A model generated the notes under the pieces. The model did no database searches. It had not been told where the DNA came from and saw nothing but the letters and a program-made list of their open reading frames with translations. A stretch of 64,000 nucleotides of DNA from a virus. The translations under genes were made by a program, and so were the position numbers. The stretch covers positions 1 to 64,000 of the IMG/VR virus record IMGVR_UViG_3300037070_001066; one strand, given 5' to 3'. The stretch's first letter is position 1. Each line of letters opens with the position of its first letter. Positions 19,054 through 38,043 of this stretch are shown here, piece after piece.

Positions 19054-19367
19054 GGGGCTGTTTTGGTTTTGACTGGTAGTGAGTAGGTAAATAGTTCAGT
19101 GAGAGATAACTCTAAACATAGGTGAATTGAATAAATGGAAAACAAATTGACGCCAATATGGCAAAAGTTCGTAGCTTAATCAACTCTGAGGAGTTTGAAT
19201 TAGCAGCATAATTATTCTAAAGATTTATCATTTAGATTAAAATGATTGGTGGATTGTTAGCTAAAACTAGTTAACCCCTTTGAACGTAACAATTTAAAAA
19301 CGTGAAACTGTATACAACTATTTAGCGAATGCTAATCAGGACGCGGGTTCGAATCCCGCCAGCTCCA
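19054..19367 (+). ncRNA. ssrA: tmRNA (SsrA); predicted tag (A)GKQIDANMAKVRSLINSEEFELAA at 19137-19211
   Basis: 5' GGGGCTG pairs with 3' CAGCTCC-A including G3-U; T-arm GCGGG-TTCGAAT-CCCGC; GAC before the T-arm; tag frame after ATAAAT ends LAA-stop. Confidence 0.92.
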
Positions 19368-19380
19368 CACTCCTAGAGTG

Positions 19381-26319: not shown

Positions 26320-26388
26320 GCCTAGTCTAGATAGAAAGAAAGTGCACTGAACTGTACAGGGGAGAGAACCCATATCTAGACAAACCAA

Positions 26389-26460
26389 GGGTAATCTTCT
26401 AAATGGTAAGATGCAAGCACGTTGCTTGTGAATATAGGTTCGAATCCTGTTTATCCGCAA
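26389..26460 (+). tRNA. Non-canonical or pseudo-tRNA (anticodon loop CACGTTG, identity unclear)
   Basis: GGGTAA/TTATCC acceptor, TCTT/AAGA D-stem with TGGTA, GCAAG/CTTGT anticodon stem, ATAGG-TTCGAAT-CCTGT T-arm; no U33. Confidence 0.45.
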
Positions 26461-26561: not shown

Positions 26562-27275
26562 ATGGAAGAAAACTTAATGCTTATACCTATAATAAAACCA
26601 GGAATGAGGGTCATGATTAGGCCTGGAACAAGGTATTATAATAGAGGGCCAGGCAATCCTGGAGGAACAAAAGGTAAAATTGTTCAAGGTGATTCTAGTT
26701 GGATAAGAGTCAGATGGGATAGTGGTTACACAAATACTTATGAAGAATATGATCTTGATTTTGAAAGTATACCAGAAATGTTTGAAACTAACATCAATAG
26801 AATATACTTCAAAGAAAATGGTATTAAAATATCTAGCATGAAACAGTTGTTAGATATATTATATCCTGAAAACAAACCAACTGCAGCAACATATTATTTT
26901 GTAACAGCCACTGGAGAGAAGTTCTTGCATTGTACAGAAGGTAAAATGAGATCATTTGATGATATCTGGATACTTGCTGATACATACATGCCTGGAATTG
27001 AGGTTAAAGAAGTCTTTAGAGAATTGCTTTTACATGGAGTGACTGAAAAGCATGTAAAGGATGAAATATTTAAAAAATCATTATCTCATTGTTCTACTAT
27101 GAGAAGAATAAGGTTTACTACAGATGCTGCTAGACCTCATATGATGATGGCTTCTGCTGATTGTAATAAATACGACTCTATATATAGTTGGAGAAACTTA
27201 TTTAACATGCTTAACATAAAAGATTCTGCAGATTTACTAAAATTTTACAAACAATCAATTAAAGTAGAAGTATAA
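26562..27275 (+). CDS. SH3-like (MIB/HERC2-like) domain fused to novel paralogous C..RSxDD domain (member 1)
   Basis: GMRVMIR...GTKGKIV...WIRVRWDSGYTNTY; LHCTEGKMRSFDD...CSTMRRIRF. Confidence 0.6.
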   Translation: MEENLMLIPIIKPGMRVMIRPGTRYYNRGPGNPGGTKGKIVQGDSSWIRVRWDSGYTNTYEEYDLDFESIPEMFETNINRIYFKENGIKISSMKQLLDILYPENKPTAATYYFVTATGEKFLHCTEGKMRSFDDIWILADTYMPGIEVKEVFRELLLHGVTEKHVKDEIFKKSLSHCSTMRRIRFTTDAARPHMMMASADCNKYDSIYSWRNLFNMLNIKDSADLLKFYKQSIKVEV

Positions 27276-27742
27276 TGGAACTGTATGTACAATTTGCGCA
27301 AGAAGAACTTCCTAGAACTGTTGCCTCATTTATTAAAAAATATTACACAAAACGAGTAGATCCATATATTGCAATAGGACACAATACATTTTTTGATCCT
27401 GAATGTACTAAATTGCATTGCAGTAAATCTTATAGAAGTTTTGATGATTTATATGATTTGGTAAAAACGTATTATCCTGATACAACAAAAAAAGAAATGA
27501 TTCATCATCTTATTACTGTAAATATACCAACACAAAATGGTAGATCTTTTCCTAATTTAGGAACATGTAATACTATGAATAGAATTAGATTCATACCTTA
27601 CCAAAAAATGAATGATCGTCCTGAGCATTTAGAAATGAAAATGTTACATTCTGAAAACACCTGGATGGAATTACTTGGTTTAATAGGAATAAAAAGTGAA
27701 AAAGAATTACAAGAATACATTAAAAACAATAGAGAACCTTAA
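27275..27742 (+). CDS. Paralogous C..RSxDD family protein (member 2)
   Basis: LHCSKSYRSFDDLYDLVKTYYP...CNTMNRIRF. Confidence 0.65.
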   Translation: MELYVQFAQEELPRTVASFIKKYYTKRVDPYIAIGHNTFFDPECTKLHCSKSYRSFDDLYDLVKTYYPDTTKKEMIHHLITVNIPTQNGRSFPNLGTCNTMNRIRFIPYQKMNDRPEHLEMKMLHSENTWMELLGLIGIKSEKELQEYIKNNREP

Positions 27743-27753
27743 ATTAATTTATC

Positions 27754-29129
27754 ATGACAAAGCTAGGAGAGATTAAAATCGCGTTTAAGTACAGAGGAAT
27801 CGAAAGACAAAAAACTTACATCATTGTAAGAGATTCTGCGGGAGAAGTATTGATGGAAACATCTGTTAAAAGATGTGTCGAAGATCAACATGACAAATTG
27901 TTAGCTAGATTCCAAGCATTCAGAAAGGCTATGCATCGTCTTATGATTGAGAATCGTATAACAAGACAACAACGCAAAGAGATTTGGGCTGCATTCGTTG
28001 AAAATGTTAAAGTGCCTTCTAAGATCAATTTGGACTCACCAAAGAGAGAAAAGAAAGTTAAAGCAATGATAGCAGTATAATGGATATCCCAAATACTGTT
28101 ACTTATCACTTTGAGAATGGTGCAAAACAAATTTGTTCTATAAATGATAAAGTCATTTATAATGTCAAAGGACGTTTAAGAAGTCGTAATGAATTATATG
28201 ACATCTTTGCCACCACAGCTCATGACTTAGGAGCGATTAAATTCGAAATCTAATGCTCCAAATAGGTCTAATGAATGATGATTCGTGTGAATTCATCATC
28301 GAGAACACTATAACGGAATGTAATAGAGTTCTATACAATTGGAAACTAAATAAGAAGAATATCGATTACGATGATAAAATTTCTTTATTTAGAAGTTATC
28401 TAGCCAAGTTCTTTAAACAGAAGTTTGGTTATGCTGCATATCATAGATATATCAGAGCTTATACCCCACTTGTAGTAATTGAGAATTACATGCTAATTGA
28501 CATAGATTTTAATGTAACACATGCTAATTGCAAAGCAAATATTTATTTAGTAGCTCTAAGTAACTATACTCGAAAAATGGACATATTAAAATTTAGTCAA
28601 TTGCAAGAAATGAAACCTATGTCTATAATCGAAGACAATAGGATTCTAGAAACTGTTGATTATACAAAAATTGCTAACATTAGATTTAATTAAAATGGCT
28701 GACGTACAACAAAACGAAGAACAAGGAAAAGAAGCTAAAAAAGTATTAGCCAATTTCGAACAGACAGTAAACAAACTTACTGCAATTGTAAGAGGACCTG
28801 AAAATCTTAAATTACCTACTAGAGTAAAGAAAGACAATGTGCAAGTTCTTGTTGAAGAACTATTCAAGGAAGAGAGTGAAGCTACGATTAAAGAGGTAAA
28901 AGAGGGTGTTAAAGCATTATTAAAAGGATATGTTGCTTTAAATTCTTCTTTAGCTGAAGAGCGTAAGAAACTTGATTTACTTGAAGTTGCTAAAAAGAAG
29001 GAATTCAATGCAACTGCTGCAAGATTGTTTTCTAAAATTGATGGCATTGACAATATTAATAGGGAGTATCAAGCTGCCTTAGGTGCTGCTCAAGCTGCTG
29101 TTGAAAACAAGGAAGAAGATCCTGAATAA
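27754..29129 (+). other. Hypothetical proteins 27754-28080, 28253-28693 and coiled-coil 28695-29129
   Basis: ORF track; third ORF probably starts at ATG 28695 (MADVQ). Confidence 0.55.
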
Positions 29130-29130
29130 T

Positions 29131-29547
29131 ATGTGTAAATACTCGAATAGACTCTATAAAGAGTGGATAGCGTATGGCAAGATAATATTATCAGTAGACT
29201 TTGATGATACATTATATCCATGGGGATTACTTCAAAACGATAAAGATAGAGCTAAAACTATCAAATTAGTTAAGAAGGCAAAAGGTATTGGAGCATATAT
29301 AGTTATATTCACTGCGTCTGATAAAGAAAGATACAATGAAATAATTAAATATTGCAAAGCCTTAGGTATTGACATTGATACAATTAATCAAAACCCTATT
29401 GATTTACCATTTGGTAACAATGGAGGTAAAATCTTCTACAATCACAATCTATGTGATAGAAGTGGATTAACTGAATCATTAAGAATCCTTAAAAAAGCAA
29501 TGAAACGTTACAGGAAATATAAACAAAAAATAATCTTAACAAGTTAA
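29131..29547 (+). CDS. HAD-superfamily phosphatase-like protein
   Basis: ILSVDFDDTL (motif I), IFTA (motif II), K and CDR motifs; likely start ATG 29131. Confidence 0.7.
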   Translation: MCKYSNRLYKEWIAYGKIILSVDFDDTLYPWGLLQNDKDRAKTIKLVKKAKGIGAYIVIFTASDKERYNEIIKYCKALGIDIDTINQNPIDLPFGNNGGKIFYNHNLCDRSGLTESLRILKKAMKRYRKYKQKIILTS

Positions 29548-29551
29548 AAAC

Positions 29552-31243
29552 ATGAGTGATTTAAATCCGATGTTGTTTGTCGACAGTTACAAACTTCATC
29601 ACAAGCCTATGTATCCAAATGGTATGGTAAAACTATATTCTAACGGAACACCTAGAGCTAGTAGAATGCCAGGAGTTAAAGAAGTAGTTGTGTTTACAAT
29701 GCAACATACTATTAGAGAGTATCTTATTGAGAAATTTAATAAAAACTTCTTTATGACCGAAGAGAGAGAACGATGTTTAAACCAATCATGGGCTCTTGAG
29801 GCTTTAAAAGGAAAGATGGTTGCAGACTACAAACGTCACTGTCCTGTCGATACTAAACACATCGAAGATTTATGGGACTTAGGATATCTTCCTATTGAGA
29901 TTAAAGCTCTTGAAGAAGGCACATTATGTCCAATTGGAGTTCCAGTATTCACGATTACAAACACTCATCCTAGTTTTGCTTGGTTAGTGAATTATTTGGA
30001 AACTTTAATTTCCTGTTGTATTTGGCAAGGTATGACCTCAGCTACAATCACTCATGAGTATAAGAAAATATTAACCAAACACGCTTTAGAATCAGATGAA
30101 GAAAACGTCGAATTCGTTAACTGGCAAGCTCATGACTTTAGCATGCGTGGCATGTCTAGTGTCGAATCTGCTATTACTTCTGGAATGGGTCATTTGCTAT
30201 CAGTCACAGGCAGCGACAATATACCAGCAATCTACCAACTTGAGAAGAGTTATTCAGGTTCTGGGCTTATTGGAGCTTCTATTCCTGCTACTGAGCATTC
30301 TGTCATGTGCATGGGTAATAAAGAGAATGAGGTAGATACATTTAGACGTCTTCTAACTTTATATCCTGAAGGAAACTTAGCAATAGTTTCAGACACTTGG
30401 GACTTATGGGATGTAGCAGAATTCTATTTACCTGTATTGAGAGATTTAATTATGTCTCGTAATGGTAAGTTAGTAATACGTCCTGATTCAGGTAATCCTG
30501 CAGATATTCTATGTGGATTAGATTATGAAGAGATTGATCATCGTGATGAAGTTTACTTAATAGACGACCCTAAAGTTGTATATGTAAGAAACGAAGATGC
30601 TTTCTTTAGAGTTAAAAAGATAGAAAAATCTGGAACTTTTGATTACGTTTATTCAGAAGTTAGAGAAGCAGAGGTTAAAGGGCTCGTACAGCTACTTTGG
30701 GACGCATTTGCGGGCACAACTAATACTCAAGGGTATAAAGTATTAGATTCACATATTGGAGCGATCTACGGCGATTCTATTACGTTGGCACGTGCTGAAG
30801 AAATCTGTACTAGACTTAGAGAAAATGGCTTTGCATCTACAAATGTTGTACTTGGTATTGGAAGTTATACTTACCAATATAATACAAGAGATACTTTTGG
30901 ATTTGCTATCAAAGCTACATATGGTGAGGTAATGAGTTCAGATGGTACTTGCACTTGTGAGAATACTTCGTCATGTGAATGTGGTAAGATTGATAGAAGA
31001 GAAATCTACAAAGATCCTATTACTGACGATGGTACTAAGAAATCTAAGAGAGGCTTGTTAAGAGTAGACATGGAAGACGGTAAAATCGTTTGCTATGAAA
31101 GCCAAACTCCTTTCGAAGAGACTCAAGGTTTACTACAAACTGTATTCAAAGATGGCAAGTTATATAACCAAACCACTCTAGAGAGAATTCGAGAAAAACT
31201 TAAATCACAATTTCATGTTGAGCCAGCGGGATCAGGACGATAA
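29552..31243 (+). CDS. Nicotinamide phosphoribosyltransferase-like enzyme (Nampt/NadV family; Namat-like in this context)
   Basis: DSYKLHH, HDFSMRG, PATEHSVM, VSDTWD, VIRPDSG, IYGDSI, GIGSYTYQ, RDTFGFAIKAT, KKSKRG. Confidence 0.92.
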   Translation: MSDLNPMLFVDSYKLHHKPMYPNGMVKLYSNGTPRASRMPGVKEVVVFTMQHTIREYLIEKFNKNFFMTEERERCLNQSWALEALKGKMVADYKRHCPVDTKHIEDLWDLGYLPIEIKALEEGTLCPIGVPVFTITNTHPSFAWLVNYLETLISCCIWQGMTSATITHEYKKILTKHALESDEENVEFVNWQAHDFSMRGMSSVESAITSGMGHLLSVTGSDNIPAIYQLEKSYSGSGLIGASIPATEHSVMCMGNKENEVDTFRRLLTLYPEGNLAIVSDTWDLWDVAEFYLPVLRDLIMSRNGKLVIRPDSGNPADILCGLDYEEIDHRDEVYLIDDPKVVYVRNEDAFFRVKKIEKSGTFDYVYSEVREAEVKGLVQLLWDAFAGTTNTQGYKVLDSHIGAIYGDSITLARAEEICTRLRENGFASTNVVLGIGSYTYQYNTRDTFGFAIKATYGEVMSSDGTCTCENTSSCECGKIDRREIYKDPITDDGTKKSKRGLLRVDMEDGKIVCYESQTPFEETQGLLQTVFKDGKLYNQTTLERIREKLKSQFHVEPAGSGR

Positions 31244-31334
31244 TCCTAGAAGCCCAGGCTTTACAGGTTGCCCTAAATGTGAAAAACCAAAAGGGCTTTG
31301 TACGTGTAAACCAAAAACAGGAAAAAAATGCTAA
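31215..31334 (+). CDS. Putative 39-aa zinc-binding micro-protein (not in ORF track)
   Basis: MLSQRDQDDNPRSPGFTGCPKCEKPKGLCTCKPKTGKKC; overlaps both flanking genes. Confidence 0.45.
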   Translation: MLSQRDQDDNPRSPGFTGCPKCEKPKGLCTCKPKTGKKC

Positions 31335-32209
31335 GTCTAAATTTAACTAACCAAGAAACGTCTGACATCCATTTTAAAATTTATAATTTTCCAGATGGAC
31401 AAAGACAAGTAAAGATAGAGTCGCCTGTAAAGGCGCTCTACTCTTTCAAAGAAACTCCTGTTACTATAATGTCTAGAATGAATAACTTTCAAGATCTTGA
31501 ATTGATTATTTGTTCAGTTAAATCATTGAGAGGATTAGGATTTAAAGAGTTAAATCTTTATTGTCCACTTTTCCTTGGTTCAAGAAGTGATAGAGTTTTC
31601 GAACCTGGTACAAATAACTATCTTAAAGATGTTATATGTCCAATTATAAACTCATTAGAGTTTGAATCTGTTATTGTAGTAGATCCTCATTCAGATGTCT
31701 TAGAAGCATGTTTAAATAACTTTAAAAAGATTAGCAATCTCGCTTTAGTTGAATTTGCTTTAAAAGACTTTAAAGATGAAGACTTTACATTAGTATCGCC
31801 TGATGCAGGAGCATTAAAAAAAGTCTTTAATATTGCTGAAAAGATTAAATACGAAGGCAGTATTTTAACTTGTACTAAAACAAGAGATGAACACGGGAAA
31901 CTCTCAAACTTAAATATCCCTCTAAATTATGAACATGTATGCAAACCCATAATTATCATTGATGATATATGTGATGGTGGAGCTACATTTGCTAGAATCG
32001 GTAGGGCTATATATGGTTATAGAGTTGCAACTGGAGCTGATTCAAAAACATTTGGAAAAGTTTCCTTAATTATCACGCATGGAATGTTTAATAATGGATT
32101 CGCTGAATTAGCTAGATATTTTAATTCTATGTATACAACGAATAGTTATAAAAACATAAATAAAGCTTTCTTGACTGCGCATAAAATTAAACAGTTAGAT
32201 GTATTTTAA
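31328..32209 (+). CDS. PRPP synthetase-like enzyme (Prs family; Adps-like in this context)
   Basis: FPDGQ, SRSDR, VDPHS, VSPDAGA, IIDDICDGGAT, ITHGMF. Confidence 0.9.
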   Translation: MLSLNLTNQETSDIHFKIYNFPDGQRQVKIESPVKALYSFKETPVTIMSRMNNFQDLELIICSVKSLRGLGFKELNLYCPLFLGSRSDRVFEPGTNNYLKDVICPIINSLEFESVIVVDPHSDVLEACLNNFKKISNLALVEFALKDFKDEDFTLVSPDAGALKKVFNIAEKIKYEGSILTCTKTRDEHGKLSNLNIPLNYEHVCKPIIIIDDICDGGATFARIGRAIYGYRVATGADSKTFGKVSLIITHGMFNNGFAELARYFNSMYTTNSYKNINKAFLTAHKIKQLDVF

Positions 32210-32843
32210 TGAATGGAAACACTAGAAAAGTTGCTCGTACGGGGTCCATAATGGTCAGGATCAATAATAAGTTTTATGAAGTTCCAGATAATGTTTTATT
32301 ATTTAAATCTCATGATGGAAAAGATATCTATCTTTCTGGTGTAAAAAATGATTCTAAAAATGATTTTAGAAAAGACTGGGTTGGAATTGTTAAATTTATT
32401 GAAGATGATAAATTTGAAAACGTTCCTTTGGCGTTATTAGAAAAGTTTATGGATGAACCATATAAGAAATTTGTTATAGATGATGAGGAATATGATATCC
32501 CTTTGCATCTATCAGATGATTGTAGACAAAAGATTTCCAAAATATCTAAGTATGTACCAAGAATTTTAAGAGAATTAAAAGAATCTTACAAAGATTTTCT
32601 ATTTAAAAGTAATTAAAATAAACGTATATGTCTAAAAAGTTGTATTCACAAATGGCCATGGCTATAGATTTAGTTTCGTTTGAATATAGAACAGGTAATC
32701 CAATTATACTTGCTGAAAAGATACATCAAGATTTAGGTATAGATTACTCTATTCACCAAATTTCTGATTACCTAGACATCAATAGAATTGATGATTACGA
32801 AAAACAGTCAAAACAAATAGAGTATGAATTCAAAAACATTTAA
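32209..32843 (+). other. Hypothetical proteins 32209-32616 and 32628-32843 (small HTH-like)
   Basis: ORF track. Confidence 0.5.
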
Positions 32844-32845
32844 AA

Positions 32846-33586
32846 ATGGCAAACTTTATAATAAAGATTCTTGAAAAAAACAGAGAACATGTTGAATCAC
32901 TTAAAGACTCAGTAGTATCACGCAATGGCTTTTTCTTAAACGAATGGGCTTATGATAATTTGGGTATTATAGTAGCGCTATACACTGTCTTCGTTTTAAT
33001 ATTTATTGCGTTATTTGCAATATTTATGTTACCTATATCAATAGTTATGATATCTATAAATGCTTGTTACAAAGGATTTAAGGCAATAAGAGGATCATAT
33101 TACTTTTATAGGAAACACATACGAGAATCAATAAAGGAATATGAAGCTTCTCTTAACAAGAAGAATACATATTTTCTATGCGATAAAGGGGATCTAAATG
33201 ATTGGACATGTATTGTCCTAGAATCACAATTAGAAGAATTCCTTATCAAGTTCTTTAACCACTATAATTCTACATATGACACTTATGAAATGAACACTAA
33301 TGAGTGTGTGTGTACTAGATATAGAAGGAGAAGCATAGGAGATCTTTATTTAATTTGCAAGAGTTATTTTCCAGACACTAATCTCGATGAAGTTATCATA
33401 TGCTTAATTAAGCTAGTTAATGACAACGTGATAGCTGTTTCTAAATGTAGCGATATAAAGAGATACGTCTTTGTTAAGAAAGATACTTATACAGGAAATT
33501 ATCAAAACAAGGAAGTAGAATTTATAAGCGGCGTTAACTTTGAACAATTAACTGCGTATTATGAACGAAACGGAAGAATGTCCTAA
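32846..33586 (+). CDS. Membrane-anchored member of the paralogous C..RSxDD family (member 3)
   Basis: Long hydrophobic segment at aa ~38-73; CVCTRYRRRSIGDLYLICKSYFP...CSDIKRYVF. Confidence 0.6.
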   Translation: MANFIIKILEKNREHVESLKDSVVSRNGFFLNEWAYDNLGIIVALYTVFVLIFIALFAIFMLPISIVMISINACYKGFKAIRGSYYFYRKHIRESIKEYEASLNKKNTYFLCDKGDLNDWTCIVLESQLEEFLIKFFNHYNSTYDTYEMNTNECVCTRYRRRSIGDLYLICKSYFPDTNLDEVIICLIKLVNDNVIAVSKCSDIKRYVFVKKDTYTGNYQNKEVEFISGVNFEQLTAYYERNGRMS

Positions 33587-33746
33587 ATGCTTTGGTTCTA
33601 CGGAAACTATGGAAGCCAAAGAAACTAAGGGGTTTGAATACAATAAATGCAGTCTGTGTAAAGGAGAAGGTGTTGTTTTAGCTGAAATAGCTGAAGACTT
33701 CATATTTTCAATCACAGAAGATAATTTTAATGATGAAACAATTTGA
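33561..33746 (+). CDS. Small DnaJ-type zinc-finger protein
   Basis: CPKCFGS...CSLCKGEG. Confidence 0.55.
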   Translation: MNETEECPKCFGSTETMEAKETKGFEYNKCSLCKGEGVVLAEIAEDFIFSITEDNFNDETI

Positions 33747-33749
33747 CAC

Positions 33750-34148
33750 ATGGAAAGAAACAATTTAATAGCAGTTTACGGTACATTACGAAAGGGATGC
33801 GGAAATCACAGTCATTTTTTAAGAAATGCTGATTTTAAAGGAGAGTTTTCTACTGAACCAGTTTACAGTTTATATAGCTTAGGAGGTTTTCCTGGGTTAA
33901 AGGCTAATGGCAATACGTCTGTTAAGATGGAAGTATATGCAGTTAATGATGATGAAGCAGATACTGTAGATTCATTGGAGGGATATTCTAAAAATAGAAC
34001 TCCTCACTTTTATGATAAAGAGGAAATCGAGACTCCTTGGGGAACAGCTAGTGTATACACTTATGTTAGAGATGTGAATGAAGATTCATTTATTCCAACT
34101 GGTGACTGGCTTAACAGGGTAGTTATGGAGCCTGTTTATCGTTTTTAA
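33750..34148 (+). CDS. Gamma-glutamylcyclotransferase (GGACT/AIG2-like)
   Basis: AVYGTLRKG, FPGL, EVY, DSLEGY, YTY, GDW. Confidence 0.85.
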   Translation: MERNNLIAVYGTLRKGCGNHSHFLRNADFKGEFSTEPVYSLYSLGGFPGLKANGNTSVKMEVYAVNDDEADTVDSLEGYSKNRTPHFYDKEEIETPWGTASVYTYVRDVNEDSFIPTGDWLNRVVMEPVYRF

Positions 34149-34159
34149 TATTATTCACA

Positions 34160-34738
34160 ATGAACATAAACTCTTTTGTTTTAGACTTTAGTCTATTAGA
34201 GGAGCAAAATCTTTCTGTAGAAGAGTTCATTGCATTGATAAGTTTGGTTAATGGAGTTGAATATCCTAATCAATACCTATCATTGCAATCAAAACAATTT
34301 GTCAAGATAACAGAAGACAATGAAATAATATTAAGGGAAAAAGGAAAATTGTTTGTTGAATTAGTTTCAATAGATAAGGTTAGCTCTAGTGGCAAAAAAA
34401 AGATATCTAAGCCTGTTGTAGTGGATGGTTTTGATGAGTTTATATTTGAATATAGATTGCAATGGAAAGGAAGGAAAGCTGGAAGTATGGGATCATTGTC
34501 TAGTTGTAAAGAGAAAATGATTCGTTGGATGGAAGAAAATCCTACATACACTAAAGAAGAGATCCTTAAAGCCGCAAAACTATATCTAAACACATTAGAA
34601 AATATACGTTATCTTCAAAGAGCTGACTTTTTCATCTTCAAGAAGGATGAGAATAAGGAAGAAAGCTCAAGATTAAGTGCATTCATTGAGGAAATAGATG
34701 AAAGACCCGTAGAAGATTGGACTAACATATTATTGTAG
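34160..34738 (+). CDS. Putative replication initiator / helicase-loader-like protein
   Basis: N-terminal wHTH-like part; C-terminal FDEF...W...EILKAAKLY...YLQRADFFI like phage replication-organiser domains; upstream of helicase. Confidence 0.45.
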   Translation: MNINSFVLDFSLLEEQNLSVEEFIALISLVNGVEYPNQYLSLQSKQFVKITEDNEIILREKGKLFVELVSIDKVSSSGKKKISKPVVVDGFDEFIFEYRLQWKGRKAGSMGSLSSCKEKMIRWMEENPTYTKEEILKAAKLYLNTLENIRYLQRADFFIFKKDENKEESSRLSAFIEEIDERPVEDWTNILL

Positions 34739-34743
34739 TTTTA

Positions 34744-34775
34744 TTAGGAAAAATCAATTATTTTTCGTATATTTG
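34744..34775 (+). promoter_or_regulatory. Bacteroidota-type promoter for the homing endonuclease
   Basis: TATATTTG 34768-34775 with TTAG at the -33 position. Confidence 0.5.
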
Positions 34776-34791
34776 TATAAAATTTATACAA

Positions 34792-35382
34792 ATGATAGGA
34801 ATATATAAAATTACATCTCCATCAAATAAAATATACATTGGTCAAAGTACGGATATTGAAAAAAGATTTAGTCAATATTTAAAGTTAAATTGTAAATTTC
34901 AAAAAAGATTGTTCAATTCATTTACCAAATATGGTGTTGAAAACCATAAATTTGAAATATTGACATTGTGTTATGAAGAACAATTAAGTATATTTGAACG
35001 AGATTTTCAAGAAGCTTATGATGTTATTGGTAAAAATGGATTAAATTGTATATTAACAAATACAAGTTCATTAAAAAAGATTTTATCTGAAGAAACTAGG
35101 ATAAAAATGTCTAATTCTAGAATTGGTTTTAAATTTTCTGATGAATCTAAACTTAAAATGAGTATAGCTAAAAAAGGAAGAAAAAGAACTGAAAAAGAGT
35201 TGAAATCTTACGAGTTATATCATAGTTCTAAATCTAAACCAATAATTTGTACTAAAACAAATAAAGAATGGTATTCTTTAAGAAAATGTGCTAAAGAGCA
35301 TGGAATTTCAAAAAGCATATTAAGTAATTATTTGAATGGTAAAAATCCTAATAAAACAACATTGATTTATAAAAATTCTTAA
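34792..35382 (+). mobile_element. Free-standing GIY-YIG homing endonuclease with NUMOD-like DNA-binding repeats
   Basis: IGIYKITSPSNKIYIGQS...R...E...N; SEETRIKMS, SDESKLKMS; C-terminal HTH; more AT-rich than flanks. Confidence 0.85.
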
Positions 35383-35389
35383 AAGAACA

Positions 35390-35815
35390 ATGGAAAAAAC
35401 AAACCTAATCTACGTTAGACTTGGTGATATTCCTGCCACAAAAACACGTAAGGGATTCATTAAGAAACTTTTAACTTCAAAAGGTGTATTGACTTATTTA
35501 GATGAGGATTGTTCAAAATTGCAATGTGCTAAAAAGGGAGCTTTTAGGAGTGTTAGCGAGTTGCATTTAATTGTACGTTCTCGTTTTAAGTTTACATCAT
35601 TGGAAGCTTTATTGAAGATTTTGAAAGAAATCATTGATGAAGAAAAATGTGTTGCATTAATTTGGTGTACACAAATTCACAAAGTAGTTGTTAAGTATCA
35701 AGAAAACACACCCAAAGAGTATATTACTCAATATAGTAAAAGTAATCACTATGAATCAAAAGGGGTAGATGGTTGGTCACTTAAAGATTACGAAGAAATT
35801 ATTAACAAATTGTAG
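35390..35815 (+). CDS. Paralogous C..RSxDD family protein (member 4)
   Basis: TYLDEDCSKLQCAKKGAFRSVSELHLIVRSRF...WCTQIHKVVV. Confidence 0.6.
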   Translation: MEKTNLIYVRLGDIPATKTRKGFIKKLLTSKGVLTYLDEDCSKLQCAKKGAFRSVSELHLIVRSRFKFTSLEALLKILKEIIDEEKCVALIWCTQIHKVVVKYQENTPKEYITQYSKSNHYESKGVDGWSLKDYEEIINKL

Positions 35816-35891
35816 GATATTCATAAAAACAATATCAAACAATAAGAACCGACTAAATAGAGTATCTTATGATTAAATCTAGCAAATTTAA

Positions 35892-36998
35892 TTGGAGAAA
35901 CAAAGTTTATTTGAAAGAACATTTAATAGAATTTCAGAACGTAGACAGCGTGTTTTAGATGGTAAGATAAATTGTATCCCATGGAATTTGCCTAGATTTG
36001 AAGAATCTTGTCCAGGTATTGAACAAGGTAAATACTATTTAGTATCTGCAAATCAAAAAGTAGGTAAAACACAGATAACTGACTGGTTGTTTGTGTATAA
36101 CCCTATTCAACAGATACTAGATGGAAATTTAAACATCAAACTTAAAATCTTCTATTTCTCTTTAGAGATGTCTAAAGAAGAGAAAATGCTGTCTTGTTTT
36201 GCAAATATATTGTATGTTAAAGAAGGCATTAGAGTGAGTCCTATCGACTTAAAATCTACGAGGGCAAGTAATGTCCTTTCTGCGGAGATCTTGTCTGTAA
36301 TCGAACGTTACAGGCCTTATTTCGAACGTATAGAGGAGACCGTCGAGTTCATTGATGATATACGCCATGGTTTTGGTATGTATAACCTAGTTAGAGAGTA
36401 TGCTTTAGCTAATGGAACTATACATACAAGAAAGATAGAGATAGACGGAAAAGTTACAGAAGTAGAGGATTATTATGAATCTAATGATCCTGACGAATAT
36501 GTAATGATCTTAATTGACCACATCAGTCTAATATCACCAGAAAAAAGAAATGGTTTACAACTAACTTTACATGAAAGTATATCTTCATTATCAGCAGACT
36601 ATTTAATTAAGCTTAGAAATAGGTTTAACTATATACCTGTAGTAATTCAACAACAAAGTGCTTCCCAAGAGGGTATTGAGAACAAAAAGGCTAACAAGCT
36701 TAAGCCAACAATGGACGGGTTAGGAGACAATAAGCTAACTGGTAGAGATCCAAATGTAATGTTAGGGTTGTTTAGTCCATTTAGACATGAAATCCCTGAT
36801 TATTTTGGATATGATATTACCCAATTCAAGGATAATATTAGGTTCTTAGAAATTATGGGCTCTCGTGACGGTGGTGCTGGTGCAATTTGTCCATTATATT
36901 TTGATGGAGCTACCAATTATTTTAGAGAATTGCCAAGACCTGAAGATAAAGAACAGTTAATGAGAGTGTATGATTTTTTAAAAACAATGAAAAAATGA
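35892..36998 (+). CDS. DnaB-like (SF4) replicative helicase
   Basis: ANQKVGKT, FSLEMS, ILIDHISL, VIQQQS, GRDPN, SRDG. Confidence 0.8.
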   Translation: MEKQSLFERTFNRISERRQRVLDGKINCIPWNLPRFEESCPGIEQGKYYLVSANQKVGKTQITDWLFVYNPIQQILDGNLNIKLKIFYFSLEMSKEEKMLSCFANILYVKEGIRVSPIDLKSTRASNVLSAEILSVIERYRPYFERIEETVEFIDDIRHGFGMYNLVREYALANGTIHTRKIEIDGKVTEVEDYYESNDPDEYVMILIDHISLISPEKRNGLQLTLHESISSLSADYLIKLRNRFNYIPVVIQQQSASQEGIENKKANKLKPTMDGLGDNKLTGRDPNVMLGLFSPFRHEIPDYFGYDITQFKDNIRFLEIMGSRDGGAGAICPLYFDGATNYFRELPRPEDKEQLMRVYDFLKTMKK

Positions 36999-37558
36999 GA
37001 AAAACTTATGAATGGGGAAAAGCTAATTACCAAATTTTATTAAAAGAGAAGATTGTTCTTGATTGTAAGAGAGGTGTAGCTTGTTTTTCTGACTTTATGT
37101 CAAGAGGTAGCATAGAATCTTATGATACCATAAAAATCTATAACATTGATTCTGAGCCTACAGTAGATTATAAAAACTTTTTTCTACAATACGTAATTGA
37201 CATGTATGGATTAACAGGTTCTTTTGATGATGATCACTTTGAGTTTAAATCACTCGGTCACAAAATTAAAGATGTTTTAGTTATGTCTACAGTTAGGTTA
37301 TTGTGGGAGAACTTAGGTAGTATGACGCCTCATGTTGATACTGCTAATTTACTATTTAAAAGGTTAAGAGACGATGAGTGTCCTCATGAAGATAAACTTG
37401 AAAGATTTTGTTATTTTTACAAAGCATTAGATAATCATAAAGGTTATTTCTCTGATGGACATTCTTGGCCTCCTAAAAATACATTAATAAAATCCTGCAA
37501 GGACTTTAAGACACGTGTTGATTGGCCGTCTGTTAATGGATTTTTTACAAGAATTTAA
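36995..37558 (+). CDS. Hypothetical protein
   Basis: 187-aa ORF coupled to helicase. Confidence 0.55.
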   Translation: MRKTYEWGKANYQILLKEKIVLDCKRGVACFSDFMSRGSIESYDTIKIYNIDSEPTVDYKNFFLQYVIDMYGLTGSFDDDHFEFKSLGHKIKDVLVMSTVRLLWENLGSMTPHVDTANLLFKRLRDDECPHEDKLERFCYFYKALDNHKGYFSDGHSWPPKNTLIKSCKDFKTRVDWPSVNGFFTRI

Positions 37559-37572
37559 CAAAACTAAAGGTA

Positions 37573-38043
37573 ATGAAAAAGAGCGATGTAAAGGATTTTG
37601 ACACATTAGAAGAATATTACGATAAAGTTAGGAAGATTAAGTTTGATGATAACGTTCAGATTGAATCTTTGGACGATATATACAATAACTTGTTTACACT
37701 ACACAGAGTTGGGTTTTCTCAACGACCAACATTCTTCTCCAGAGGCAAGCTACAATGTTCTTCTGGAAGATTTCGTAGTATAGATGACTTCGTAAAACTT
37801 GTTAAAAAGTACTTCCCTGACAAAACACTAAAAGAAATATTTCAATACTTGAAAGATAAAGAAGATACATTTAAAAAAGATGATCTTATTCAAAGTTTCA
37901 GATATTGTGGAACTATTAGGAAATATAATTTCAGCGGCTTAATACCTTCAAGATATTCTCAGCATATGGAAATTGAGAAGTATAGACTAAGAGATTTAAA
38001 TCCTAATTTAGGAGTTGCCACAGTAGCTGATCTTTTAACTTAA
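37573..38043 (+). CDS. Paralogous C..RSxDD family protein (member 5)
   Basis: TFFSRGKLQCSSGRFRSIDDFVKLVKKYFP...YCGTIRKYNF. Confidence 0.65.
   Translation: MKKSDVKDFDTLEEYYDKVRKIKFDDNVQIESLDDIYNNLFTLHRVGFSQRPTFFSRGKLQCSSGRFRSIDDFVKLVKKYFPDKTLKEIFQYLKDKEDTFKKDDLIQSFRYCGTIRKYNFSGLIPSRYSQHMEIEKYRLRDLNPNLGVATVADLLT

What the first reader, a model, noticed from the sequence alone, without database searches (positions are those of the whole stretch)
26562..38043. Five dispersed paralogues define an unrecognised two-cysteine, winged-helix-like domain family
Seen: ORFs at 26562, 27275, 32846, 35390 and 37573 share T(Y/F)-x5-12-C-x4-6-RS(F/I/V)x(D/E)(L/I/F)xx(L/I)xxx(Y/R)(F/Y/M)P-x4-5-E...L...C-xx-(I/M)-x-(R/K)-xx-(F/V). 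Examples: LHCTEGKMRSFDDIWILADTYMP..CSTMRRIRF; LHCSKSYRSFDDLYDLVKTYYP..CNTMNRIRF; VCTRYRRRSIGDLYLICKSYFP..CSDIKRYVF; LQCAKKGAFRSVSELHLIVRSRF..CTQIHKVVV; LQCSSGRFRSIDDFVKLVKKYFP..CGTIRKYNF. One copy has an SH3/MIB-HERC2-like N-terminus and one a membrane anchor. The copies are interleaved with NAD-rescue and replication genes. I recognise no named family. Inference: a diversified nucleic-acid- or nucleotide-binding module with invariant C, RS and C (metal, redox or ligand site), possibly a panel of anti-defence or regulatory proteins with different targets.
Basis: partly seen in the sequence, partly recalled or inferred. Interest (0 to 1): 0.8.

Follow-up and report, generated by a model that had tools for sequence, protein, structure and literature searches.

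The report
Unnamed winged-helix protein family in phages
Five genes in the early/replication block of a crAss-like phage are old paralogues of a widespread phage protein family that no database names; it has a winged-helix-like core and a fixed Cys/Arg-Ser/Cys signature, and probably binds DNA or replication partners, though its function is untested.

Summary
The five ORFs (26562, 27275, 32846, 35390, 37573; + strand) are homologous. A profile built only from outside sequences scores them E 1e-47 to 4e-13, and the next hit in the genome is 0.14. There are exactly five copies in this 104.8-kb crAss-like phage genome.

The family is large (1,646 clusters at 50% identity in metagenomes). It is absent from Pfam, PHROGs, NCBIfam and PADLOC, and every database copy is unnamed or "hypothetical".

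Two AlphaFold models (pLDDT 95.8 and 91.8) both match the independent model of phi14:2 g061 (TM 0.86 and 0.70). Their only PDB resemblance is to winged-helix domains (all top 50 rows, Z up to 6.5).

T38, C49, R54, S55, L79 and C98 are conserved in all well-sampled subfamilies.

Each window copy belongs to its own orthologous subfamily with a fixed syntenic position. Two flank the DnaB-like helicase, one is membrane-anchored, and one carries an N-terminal SH3-like extension. This argues against a fast-changing anti-defence panel and for separate, retained roles in early replication or regulation.

The family is absent from the two gut crAss genomes tested and present in a cyanophage near its DNA polymerase.

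Function is inferred, not shown. The scan's index had no earlier record of this family on other DNA.

The parts
26562..27275 (+). Subfamily A, long form (237 aa). The N-terminal SH3-like extension is residues ~10-68 (nt ~26589-26765). The family domain is residues ~80-233 (nt ~26799-27260). Signature: H-C-x5-R-S-F-D-D, T-Y-M-P, C-S-T-M-R-R-I-R.
   Evidence: Outside-only HMM E 2e-33. N-terminus matches phrog_11307/18715/9469. Orthologues with the same N-terminal extension lie in tandem with the short form in G006 and G007; clade support 100/98.
27275..27742 (+). Subfamily B, canonical short form (155 aa). The whole protein is the family unit. Signature: C44, C49, R54-S55, T65-Y66-Y67-P68, C98, R103-I-R105, W130.
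   Evidence: Outside-only HMM E 1e-47. AF2 model pLDDT 95.8, pTM 0.90. Matches phi14:2 g061 model S0A2B8 at TM 0.86, E 4e-10. Winged-helix rows at Z 3.6-4.8. Orthologues in G003, G004, G006, G007 and G008.
32846..33586 (+). Subfamily C, membrane-anchored form (246 aa). The hydrophobic segment is residues ~34-76 (nt ~32945-33073). The family domain is residues ~127-222 (nt ~33224-33511).
   Evidence: Outside-only HMM E 2e-13. Hydropathy maximum 3.07, with the G006 and G002 orthologues also hydrophobic. The position between the 71-aa ORF (32628) and the 61-aa Zn-finger ORF (33561) is conserved in G006 and G002. Clade with the G006 copy has support 99/98.
35390..35815 (+). Subfamily D (141 aa), immediately upstream of the DnaB-like helicase gene. 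This is the most divergent copy: R-S-V-S-E, S-R-F-K, C-T-Q-I-H-K-V-V.
   Evidence: Outside-only HMM E 4e-13. AF2 model pLDDT 91.8, pTM 0.86. Matches phi14:2 model at TM 0.70, E 5e-6. All top 50 PDB rows are winged helix, Z up to 6.5. Positional orthologues in G002, G004, G005, G006 and G010; clade support 100/99.
37573..38043 (+). Subfamily E (156 aa), between the helicase/187-aa ORF and the Sak4-like AAA_24 ATPase gene. It carries only the two invariant Cys.
   Evidence: Outside-only HMM E 4e-20. Positional orthologues in G003, G004, G006 and G010; clade support 99/97.

Best explanation
Shown. The five ORFs are members of a large phage protein family of about 150 aa that no database names. 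The predicted fold has a winged-helix core followed by a small C-terminal helical extension. In 27275 numbering the core runs helix 16-23, an inserted beta region ending in C49, R54-S55 capping helix 56-66, helix 72-81, and a beta-hairpin wing at 92-98/103-109 that begins with C98. Each of the five copies represents a separate, old orthologous subfamily kept at a fixed place in the rightward replication block of phi14:2-like crAss-like phages.

Inferred. These are early-expressed nucleic-acid-binding accessory proteins, most likely DNA-binding, that act in genome replication and/or early-to-middle gene regulation.
- Binding would use the wing (conserved R/K103 and R105), the N-terminus of helix 2 (K/R52, R54, S55) and K73 at the start of helix 3.
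- The subfamilies would differ in target through subfamily-specific residues at the helix-2/helix-3 turn, the end of helix 3 and the wing (R-I-R, K-V-V or K-Y-N).
- One copy would tether this activity to the membrane. One adds an SH3-like module. Two work beside the helicase.
- S55 and D58 look like a helix-capping box.
- The role of the invariant C49/C98 pair (structural, redox or metal) is open.
For: Homology and copy number.

Family size: 1,646 clusters at E<=1e-3 and 443 at <=1e-10.

Fold: two confident models both match the independent BFVD model of phi14:2 g061. The exhaustive PDB comparison gives only winged-helix domains in the top 50 for both models. Best rows are Fur 9ire_B Z 6.5/2.8 A/71 aa, Stn1 8soj_B Z 6.5/2.6 A/70 aa and 4nb5_A Z 6.4/2.7 A/75 aa, and several small winged-helix domains are covered end to end.

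Charge: conserved basic positions 52, 54, 73, 103 and 105, and a wing that is net positive in 86% of members.

Subfamily-specific conserved positions at 66, 68, 80 and 103-105.

Positional orthology and well-supported subfamily clades.

Context: helicase, Sak4-like ATPase and primase are neighbours. The cyanophage member lies three genes downstream of a DNA polymerase gene.

Timing: in phi14:2 the whole rightward replicative module is the early class, transcribed by the virion RNAP (10.1101/2020.03.07.982082), and g061 lies in that block.
Against: - Z-scores are below 8, a range the tool warns can reflect only a common arrangement. Foldseek finds no PDB match.
- The putative recognition helix is about neutral and poorly conserved, and helix 2 carries a conserved acidic D57-D58.
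- 26 of 82 members have pI below 6.5.
- Many of the best structural rows are protein-binding winged helices (Stn1, cullin WHB, ESCRT-II, ScpB, Rpa2).
- A DNA-binding model does not explain the invariant Cys pair, or the many conserved polar residues (T38, Y39, D41, Q48, S126).
- No DNA target was identified.
- Early expression is inferred from position only; the paper's supplementary tables were not held.
Confidence: 0.45

Rival explanations
1. The proteins are protein-protein adaptor winged helices of the phage replisome. They would recruit or load the DnaB-like helicase, Sak4-like ATPase or primase, as the Rpa2, Stn1, MCM or ORC winged-helix domains do, rather than bind DNA themselves. The membrane-anchored copy would localise the complex.
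For: Two subfamilies flank the helicase gene at conserved positions. Many top structural rows are protein-binding, replication-associated winged helices: Stn1 8soj_B/4jqf_A, Rpa2 9f2a_C, MCM 2ma3, ORC2 5c8h. The recognition helix is neutral and a third of members are acidic.
Against: The basic residues on the wing and at the N-terminus of helix 2 are conserved. phi14:2 keeps a single copy far from its helicase. No co-variation or interaction data exist.
Confidence: 0.2
2. The proteins are a thiol-dependent enzyme, or a redox, metal or small-ligand sensor, built on a winged-helix scaffold. The conserved C49, R54, S55 and C98 (plus C44, D41, Q48, T38) would form an active or sensing site, with Cys at the ends of strands and Arg on the return strands making an anion-binding thiol pocket.
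For: The conservation pattern is rich in polar and catalytic-type residues, with R54 and C98 in 87/87. C-x5-R-S occurs in 72/87 members. Cys-based winged-helix sensors (PerR 2fe3_A, QsrR 4hqe_A) are among the structural rows.
Against: The C-to-R spacing varies (x3 to x9 in the family; x4, x5, x5, x6 and x5 among the window copies). DSSP places that loop in a beta-hairpin rather than a P-loop cradle. C44 is missing from two window copies, so a Cys3/Cys4 metal site is not universal. No enzyme family was matched by sequence. Three members lack C49 yet keep C98.
Confidence: 0.15
3. This is the first reader's idea: a diversified panel of anti-defence or host-takeover proteins, each paralogue neutralising a different host target.
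For: The genes sit in the early block, next to a NAMPT plus ribose-phosphate pyrophosphokinase pair of the kind reported to restore NAD+ against depleting defences (the anti-defence role of such pairs is from my own knowledge, not tested here). There are multiple paralogues per genome.
Against: Each paralogue is an old orthologous subfamily with a fixed syntenic position across genomes whose helicases are only 60-87% identical. That is the behaviour of core module genes, not of fast-turnover accessory anti-defence genes. There is no similarity to any defence-related model, and no fusion to any recognisable effector domain in 29 long forms.
Confidence: 0.12

Closest known systems
Winged-helix (wHTH) DNA-binding domains, for example the Fur/PerR N-terminal domain, MarR/PadR/MecI and RFX/forkhead
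   Same: Same order of elements: helix, strand, helix, helix, beta-hairpin wing. 60-79 residues superpose at 2.5-4 A. All top 50 exhaustive PDB rows for both models are of this kind. Basic residues lie on the wing.
   Different: There is no sequence-profile match to any named winged-helix family. A ~25-30-residue beta insertion sits between helix 1 and helix 2, and a conserved ~45-residue C-terminal helical extension follows (W130, L133). The invariant Cys/Arg-Ser/Cys signature is specific to this family. The recognition helix is neutral. The Fur dimerisation and metal domain is absent.
Cellulophaga phage phi14:2 g061 (YP_008242285.1 / UniProt S0A2B8), hypothetical protein
   Same: A true homologue: tblastn 29% identity, E 1e-8; profile E 4e-37; predicted structures superpose at TM 0.86 and 0.70. 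It lies in the rightward early block of a cultured crAss-like phage.
   Different: phi14:2 has one copy (184 aa, with a C-terminal tail) near the end of the early block, next to a phosphoheptose-isomerase-like gene. The window genome has five copies in five subfamilies.
Replication-associated protein-binding winged helices (Stn1/CST, Rpa2, MCM and ORC winged-helix domains)
   Same: Comparable structural scores, Z 5.2-6.5, and a genomic association with replication genes.
   Different: These are eukaryotic or archaeal, with no sequence relation. Here the resemblance is at the level of fold only.
phi29 p16.7-type membrane-anchored phage DNA-binding proteins (analogy recalled from my own knowledge)
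   Same: An N-terminal membrane anchor followed by a small putative DNA-binding domain in a phage replication gene block, as in the 32846 protein.
   Different: No sequence or structural comparison was made. p16.7 has a different (homeodomain-like) fold. This is an analogy only.

Membership tests
Winged-helix fold class | Topology H1-S1-H2-H3-S2-wing-S3 | tested here: met
   DSSP on both AF2 models. Model 1: H16-23, E47-49/54-55, H56-66, H72-81, E92-98, E103-109. Model 2: H20-29, E44-46, H55-65, H71-85, E88-93, E98-103.
Winged-helix fold class | Clear structural superposition on solved winged-helix domains | tested here: inconclusive
   All top 50 rows are winged helix for both models, but Z is only 3.6-4.8 and 5.1-6.5, below the tool's caution line of 8. 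Foldseek against PDB finds nothing at E<=0.001.
Winged-helix fold class | Nucleic-acid binding through helix 3 and the wing | not testable with these tools
   Only indirect evidence: conserved K73, R/K103 and R105, and a wing that is net positive in 86% of members, while helix 3 is neutral overall.
Any named Pfam / PHROG / NCBIfam winged-helix or other family | Profile match above the curated threshold | tested here: not met
   No consistent hit for the five copies or for 87 family members in Pfam, PHROGs or NCBIfam. PDB sequence profiles give a best E of 0.095.
Fur/PerR family | Fur profile match plus a C-terminal dimerisation/metal-binding domain | tested here: not met
   PF01475 matches 1 of 87 members at E 0.008. 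The PDB profile gives E 0.095. The structural match covers only the Fur DNA-binding domain, residues 19-89. The C-terminal part here consists of three short helices.
Cys-based phosphatases / rhodanese-like (C-x5-R-[ST] P-loop) | Strictly fixed C-x5-R spacing in a strand-loop-helix cradle | tested here: not met
   Spacing varies. In the family: x5 72, x4 7, x3 2, x6 1, x9 2, none 3. In the window copies: x4, x5, x5, x6, x5. R54-S55 are in a beta-bridge.
Cys-based phosphatases / rhodanese-like | PTP, LMW-PTP or rhodanese alpha/beta fold | tested here: inconclusive
   No such chain appears among the top 50 rows for either model. Absence from the list does not exclude the fold.
MGMT/ATL alkyltransferase-like winged helix | P-C-H-R-V active-site motif and a PF01035 match | tested here: not met
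   The motif around C98 is C-x-x-[IM]-x-[RK]. PF01035 was not hit in the five copies at E<=1 or in 87 members at E<=0.01.
MIB_HERC2 (N-terminus of the 26562 protein) | Pfam gathering score | tested here: not met
   12.9 bits against a cut-off of 33.5, E 0.11. The region does match PHROGs 11307, 18715 and 9469, all of unknown function.
Known anti-defence protein families | Homology to a characterised anti-defence protein, or a measured effect on a defence system | not testable with these tools
   No anti-defence library was available. PADLOC (defence-side models) gives only noise, with best E 0.0011 on a linker region.

The most novel reading that the evidence does not exclude
The five subfamilies together form the so-far unknown replication-initiation and organisation apparatus of phi14:2-like crAss-like phages. 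Origin- or iteron-binding winged-helix proteins flank and load the helicase. One copy tethers replication to the membrane. A conserved Cys pair couples their activity to the redox state of the infected cell.
Probability: 0.12. Interest if true: 0.7.

Novelty: new variant of a known kind. Interest (0 to 1): 0.42.

Why it matters
How crAss-like phages start and organise DNA replication, and how they switch from virion-RNAP early transcription to host-RNAP middle and late transcription, is unknown. This work defines a family of about 1,650 clusters that no database names. It comes with a high-confidence structural model, a clear residue signature and five stable subfamilies placed around the helicase.

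That gives a concrete set of candidates that can be tested in a cultured system: phi14:2 on Cellulophaga baltica carries a single copy. At the least, the family merits a database entry (a DUF-type family), so that thousands of 'hypothetical' phage proteins can be grouped.

Tried and rejected
- **Chance similarity:** rejected.
- **More than five copies in the genome:** none found.
- **Named families:** Pfam, PHROGs, NCBIfam and PADLOC give nothing on the shared domain. PDB sequence profiles give nothing. Foldseek against PDB gives nothing. ESM Atlas gives no hit above 0.84.
- **Fused domains in 29 long forms:** no Pfam domain.
- **C-x5-R-S as a phosphatase-type P-loop:** set aside because the spacing varies and the loop is a beta-hairpin.
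- **MGMT-like reactive-Cys winged helix:** no motif or profile support.
- **Universal Zn(Cys)3-4 site:** set aside because two window copies lack C44.
- **Presence in gut crAss-like phages:** cr108_1 and PhiCrAssBcn1 have no match at E<=1. Their helicase-adjacent small ORFs are unrelated, with hhalign probability <=1.2%.
- **Presence in prokaryotic genomes:** the motif-pattern scan gave two chance matches that the profile did not confirm. No profile search across prokaryotic genomes was run, so absence from cells is not established.
- **Near-identical phage records:** none by megablast.
- **Literature:** searches found no description of the family. The supplementary tables of the phi14:2 transcriptome preprint were not held.
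- **Cys-Cys and Cys-Arg distances:** could not be measured because the model coordinates are not exposed.

Full report
**1. What is in the window**

The window is the first 64 kb of a single-contig 104,771-bp virus record. The genome is crAss-like:
- Its DnaB-like helicase (35892-36998) is 43-46% identical to helicases of Crassvirales genomes.
- The closest named relative of the family under study is g061 of Cellulophaga phage phi14:2, Steigviridae.
- Earlier first-stage notes on the same genome read the downstream giant ORFs as a phi14:2-type virion RNA polymerase. I treated those notes as leads only.

The region from 24.6 to 40.7 kb is one run of + strand genes. In order they are: membrane proteins; paralogues A and B; small ORFs; a phosphoheptose-isomerase-like protein; NAMPT; ribose-phosphate pyrophosphokinase; paralogue C; a 61-aa Zn-finger ORF; a gamma-glutamyl cyclotransferase; a 192-aa ORF; a GIY-YIG endonuclease; paralogue D; the DnaB-like helicase; a 187-aa ORF; paralogue E; a Sak4-like AAA_24 ATPase; a 201-aa ORF; and the primase.

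Yes.
- In blastp against the window's own ORFs they form a closed cluster (E 1e-9 to 2e-3), and the best unrelated hit is 0.044.
- A profile built only from family members outside this genome scores the five at 1e-47, 2e-33, 4e-20, 2e-13 and 4e-13. The sixth-best six-frame hit in the whole genome is 0.14.
- The genome therefore holds exactly five copies.

**3. How large is the family, and is it named?**

A profile search of 1.84 billion cluster representatives found 1,646 proteins at E<=1e-3 and 443 at <=1e-10. Most are 145-170 aa, so the whole small protein is the unit.
- No member carries an informative name. The few that are named are called 'hypothetical protein', and none has a precomputed Pfam domain.
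- Eighty-seven members were scanned one by one. They give no consistent Pfam family and no PHROG.
- NCBIfam and PADLOC give nothing.
- Sequence profiles against PDB give nothing better than E 0.095.
- Twenty-nine longer forms carry no recognisable fused Pfam domain.
- Four literature searches found no description of the family.
- The scan's own index has no earlier look-alike.

**4. Conservation** (numbering of the 27275 protein)

- R54 and C98 are invariant (87/87).
- Y66 86/87, T38 85/87, S55 85/87, C49 84/87, Y4 82/87, T65 81/87, W130 81/87, L133 81/87, L79 79/87.
- C44 75/85, Q48 74/87, D57 77/87, D58 78/87, P68 74/86.
- T38, C49, R54, S55, L79 and C98 are conserved in all four subfamilies that have enough sequences.
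- Conserved basic positions are 52, 54, 73, 103 and 105. The wing region is net positive in 86% of members. Helix 2 is acidic. Helix 3 is neutral.
- S55 with D58 has the pattern of a helix-capping box. This is my inference.
- C-x5-R-S is the commonest spacing (72/87) but is not fixed. The five window copies have x4, x5, x5, x6 and x5.

**5. Structure**

| Model | pLDDT | pTM |
|---|---|---|
| 27275 protein, 87-sequence alignment | 95.8 | 0.90 |
| 35390 protein (most divergent), 62-sequence alignment | 91.8 | 0.86 |

- In the viral predicted-structure library, each model has one significant match, and it is the same one: phi14:2 S0A2B8 (g061). The scores are TM 0.86, E 4e-10 and TM 0.70, E 5e-6.
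- Foldseek against PDB finds nothing.
- The exhaustive aligner gives modest scores but a uniform answer. All top 50 rows are winged-helix domains for both models.
  - First model: Z 3.6-4.8.
  - Second model: Z 5.1-6.5, with 66 chains at Z>=5. This model lacks the extra hairpin after helix 1.
  - The same chains lead both lists: Fur 9ire_B, Stn1 8soj_B, 4nb5_A and PerR 2fe3_A. Several small winged-helix domains are covered end to end.
- The secondary-structure order is the winged-helix order. C49 ends the strand before helix 2. R54-S55 sit directly before helix 2. C98 ends the first wing strand. R/K103 opens the return strand.
- These Z values are under the tool's caution line of 8. I therefore call the fold winged-helix-like, not a proven member of any winged-helix family.
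- The tools do not expose coordinates.

**6. Genomic behaviour**

*Copy number.* A degenerate DNA pattern for R-S-F-D-D...T-Y-[FY]-P found 16 loci in IMG/VR. Whole-record profile searches of ten of those records found 2-5 copies in every one. Three of the records are 96-100% complete at 97-104 kb. phi14:2 has one copy.

*Positional orthology.* Synteny mapping and a maximum-likelihood tree of 39 domains show that each window copy sits in its own well-supported clade with orthologues at the same position:

| Subfamily | Window ORF | Position | Orthologues in | Support |
|---|---|---|---|---|
| A | 26562 | SH3-like N-terminal extension; tandem with B | G006, G007 | 100/98 |
| B | 27275 | canonical short form | G003, G004, G006, G007, G008 | 94/90 |
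| C | 32846 | membrane-anchored; between the 71-aa and 61-aa ORFs | G006 (G002 at the same position) | 99/98 with G006 |
| D | 35390 | just upstream of the helicase | G002, G004, G005, G006, G010 | 100/99 |
| E | 37573 | between the helicase and the Sak4-like ATPase | G003, G004, G006, G010 | 99/97 |

The membrane anchor and the SH3-like extension are conserved in the closest orthologues. The duplications are therefore old, and each copy has been kept. That pattern points to distinct, non-redundant roles.

*Range.*
- Two gut Asinivirinae genomes (cr108_1, PhiCrAssBcn1) have no match at E<=1 with a method that found the family in all eleven positive genomes. Their helicase-adjacent small ORFs are unrelated.
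- A pattern scan of 185,579 prokaryotic species genomes gave only two chance matches. No profile search of prokaryotic genomes was run.
- Leptolyngbya phage Lbo-JY46, a 125-kb cyanophage that is not crAss-like, has a true member: profile E 9e-13 and hhalign probability 97% over 132 columns. It lies three genes downstream of a DNA polymerase gene.

**7. Timing**

[quoted passage not shown] Middle and late genes are leftward and use host RNAP at promoters with an extra upstream block (10.1101/2020.03.07.982082). g061 lies in the rightward block. Early expression of the family is therefore inferred from position. The supplementary tables that would show it directly were not held.

**8. Interpretation**

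*Shown:* a real, large phage family with no name in any library searched; a winged-helix-like core with a specific Cys/Arg-Ser/Cys signature; five old subfamilies with fixed positions in the replication block.

*Inferred as most likely (about 0.45):* early-expressed nucleic-acid-binding accessory proteins for replication and/or the early-to-middle switch. Target differences would be encoded at the helix-2/helix-3 turn, the end of helix 3 and the wing (positions 66, 68, 80 and 103-105).

*Rivals:*
- Protein-adaptor winged helices of the replisome (0.2).
- A thiol-based sensor or enzyme on a winged-helix scaffold (0.15).
Positional orthology weakens this one, but it is not excluded.

The main weaknesses of the leading explanation are the neutral recognition helix, the acidic members, the unexplained invariant cysteines and the modest structural Z-scores.

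**9. Verdict**

Novelty: a new variant (a new family) within the known winged-helix kind.

Interest is moderate. The family is worth naming and testing in phi14:2. However, uncharacterised winged-helix proteins are common in phage early regions, and no unusual mechanism has been demonstrated.

Noticed in passing
window 19054-19370 (+): A phage-encoded tmRNA gene. ARAGORN calls it, with a 24-residue tag peptide ending in ...EEFELAA. Rfam RF00023 scores 82.4 bits against a gathering score of 47 (E 2.5e-31), matching the full model.
   Followed up: partly
window 26388-26458 (+): A tRNA-like element in the 310-bp gap just upstream of paralogue 26562. Rfam RF00005 scores 33.1 bits against a gathering score of 29 (E 6e-4). 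ARAGORN does not call it. A second T-arm-like GGTTCGACTCC lies at ~26294.
   Followed up: partly
window 34792-35382 (+): A GIY-YIG/NUMOD3 homing-endonuclease gene sits between the 192-aa ORF and paralogue D. In G004 and G006 those two genes are adjacent, so this looks like a recent mobile insertion.
   Followed up: partly
window 33561-33746 (+): A 61-aa CxxC...CxxC Zn-finger ORF always follows the membrane-anchored paralogue C (or its position) in related genomes. It weakly matches phrog_6060, 'anti-termination protein Q-like' (E 5e-5).
   Followed up: no
window 29552-32209 (+): A NAMPT (E 7e-176) plus ribose-phosphate pyrophosphokinase (E 2e-52) pair. It is also present in G005, G006 and G007 and resembles phage NAD+-reconstitution gene pairs.
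   Followed up: partly
This is a candidate origin or iteron region and a possible target for winged-helix proteins.
   Followed up: partly
L052:4845-5303 (Leptolyngbya phage Lbo-JY46, PP438436.1 40367-40825): A cultured cyanophage outside the Crassvirales carries a true family member (152 aa, annotated as hypothetical) three genes downstream of its DNA polymerase gene and a LAGLIDADG endonuclease.
   Followed up: partly
window 29083-29547 (+): A 154-aa protein matches phrog_1238, 'phosphoheptose isomerase' (E 2e-17). The same annotation is given to phi14:2 g060, which directly precedes the family member g061 in phi14:2.
   Followed up: no
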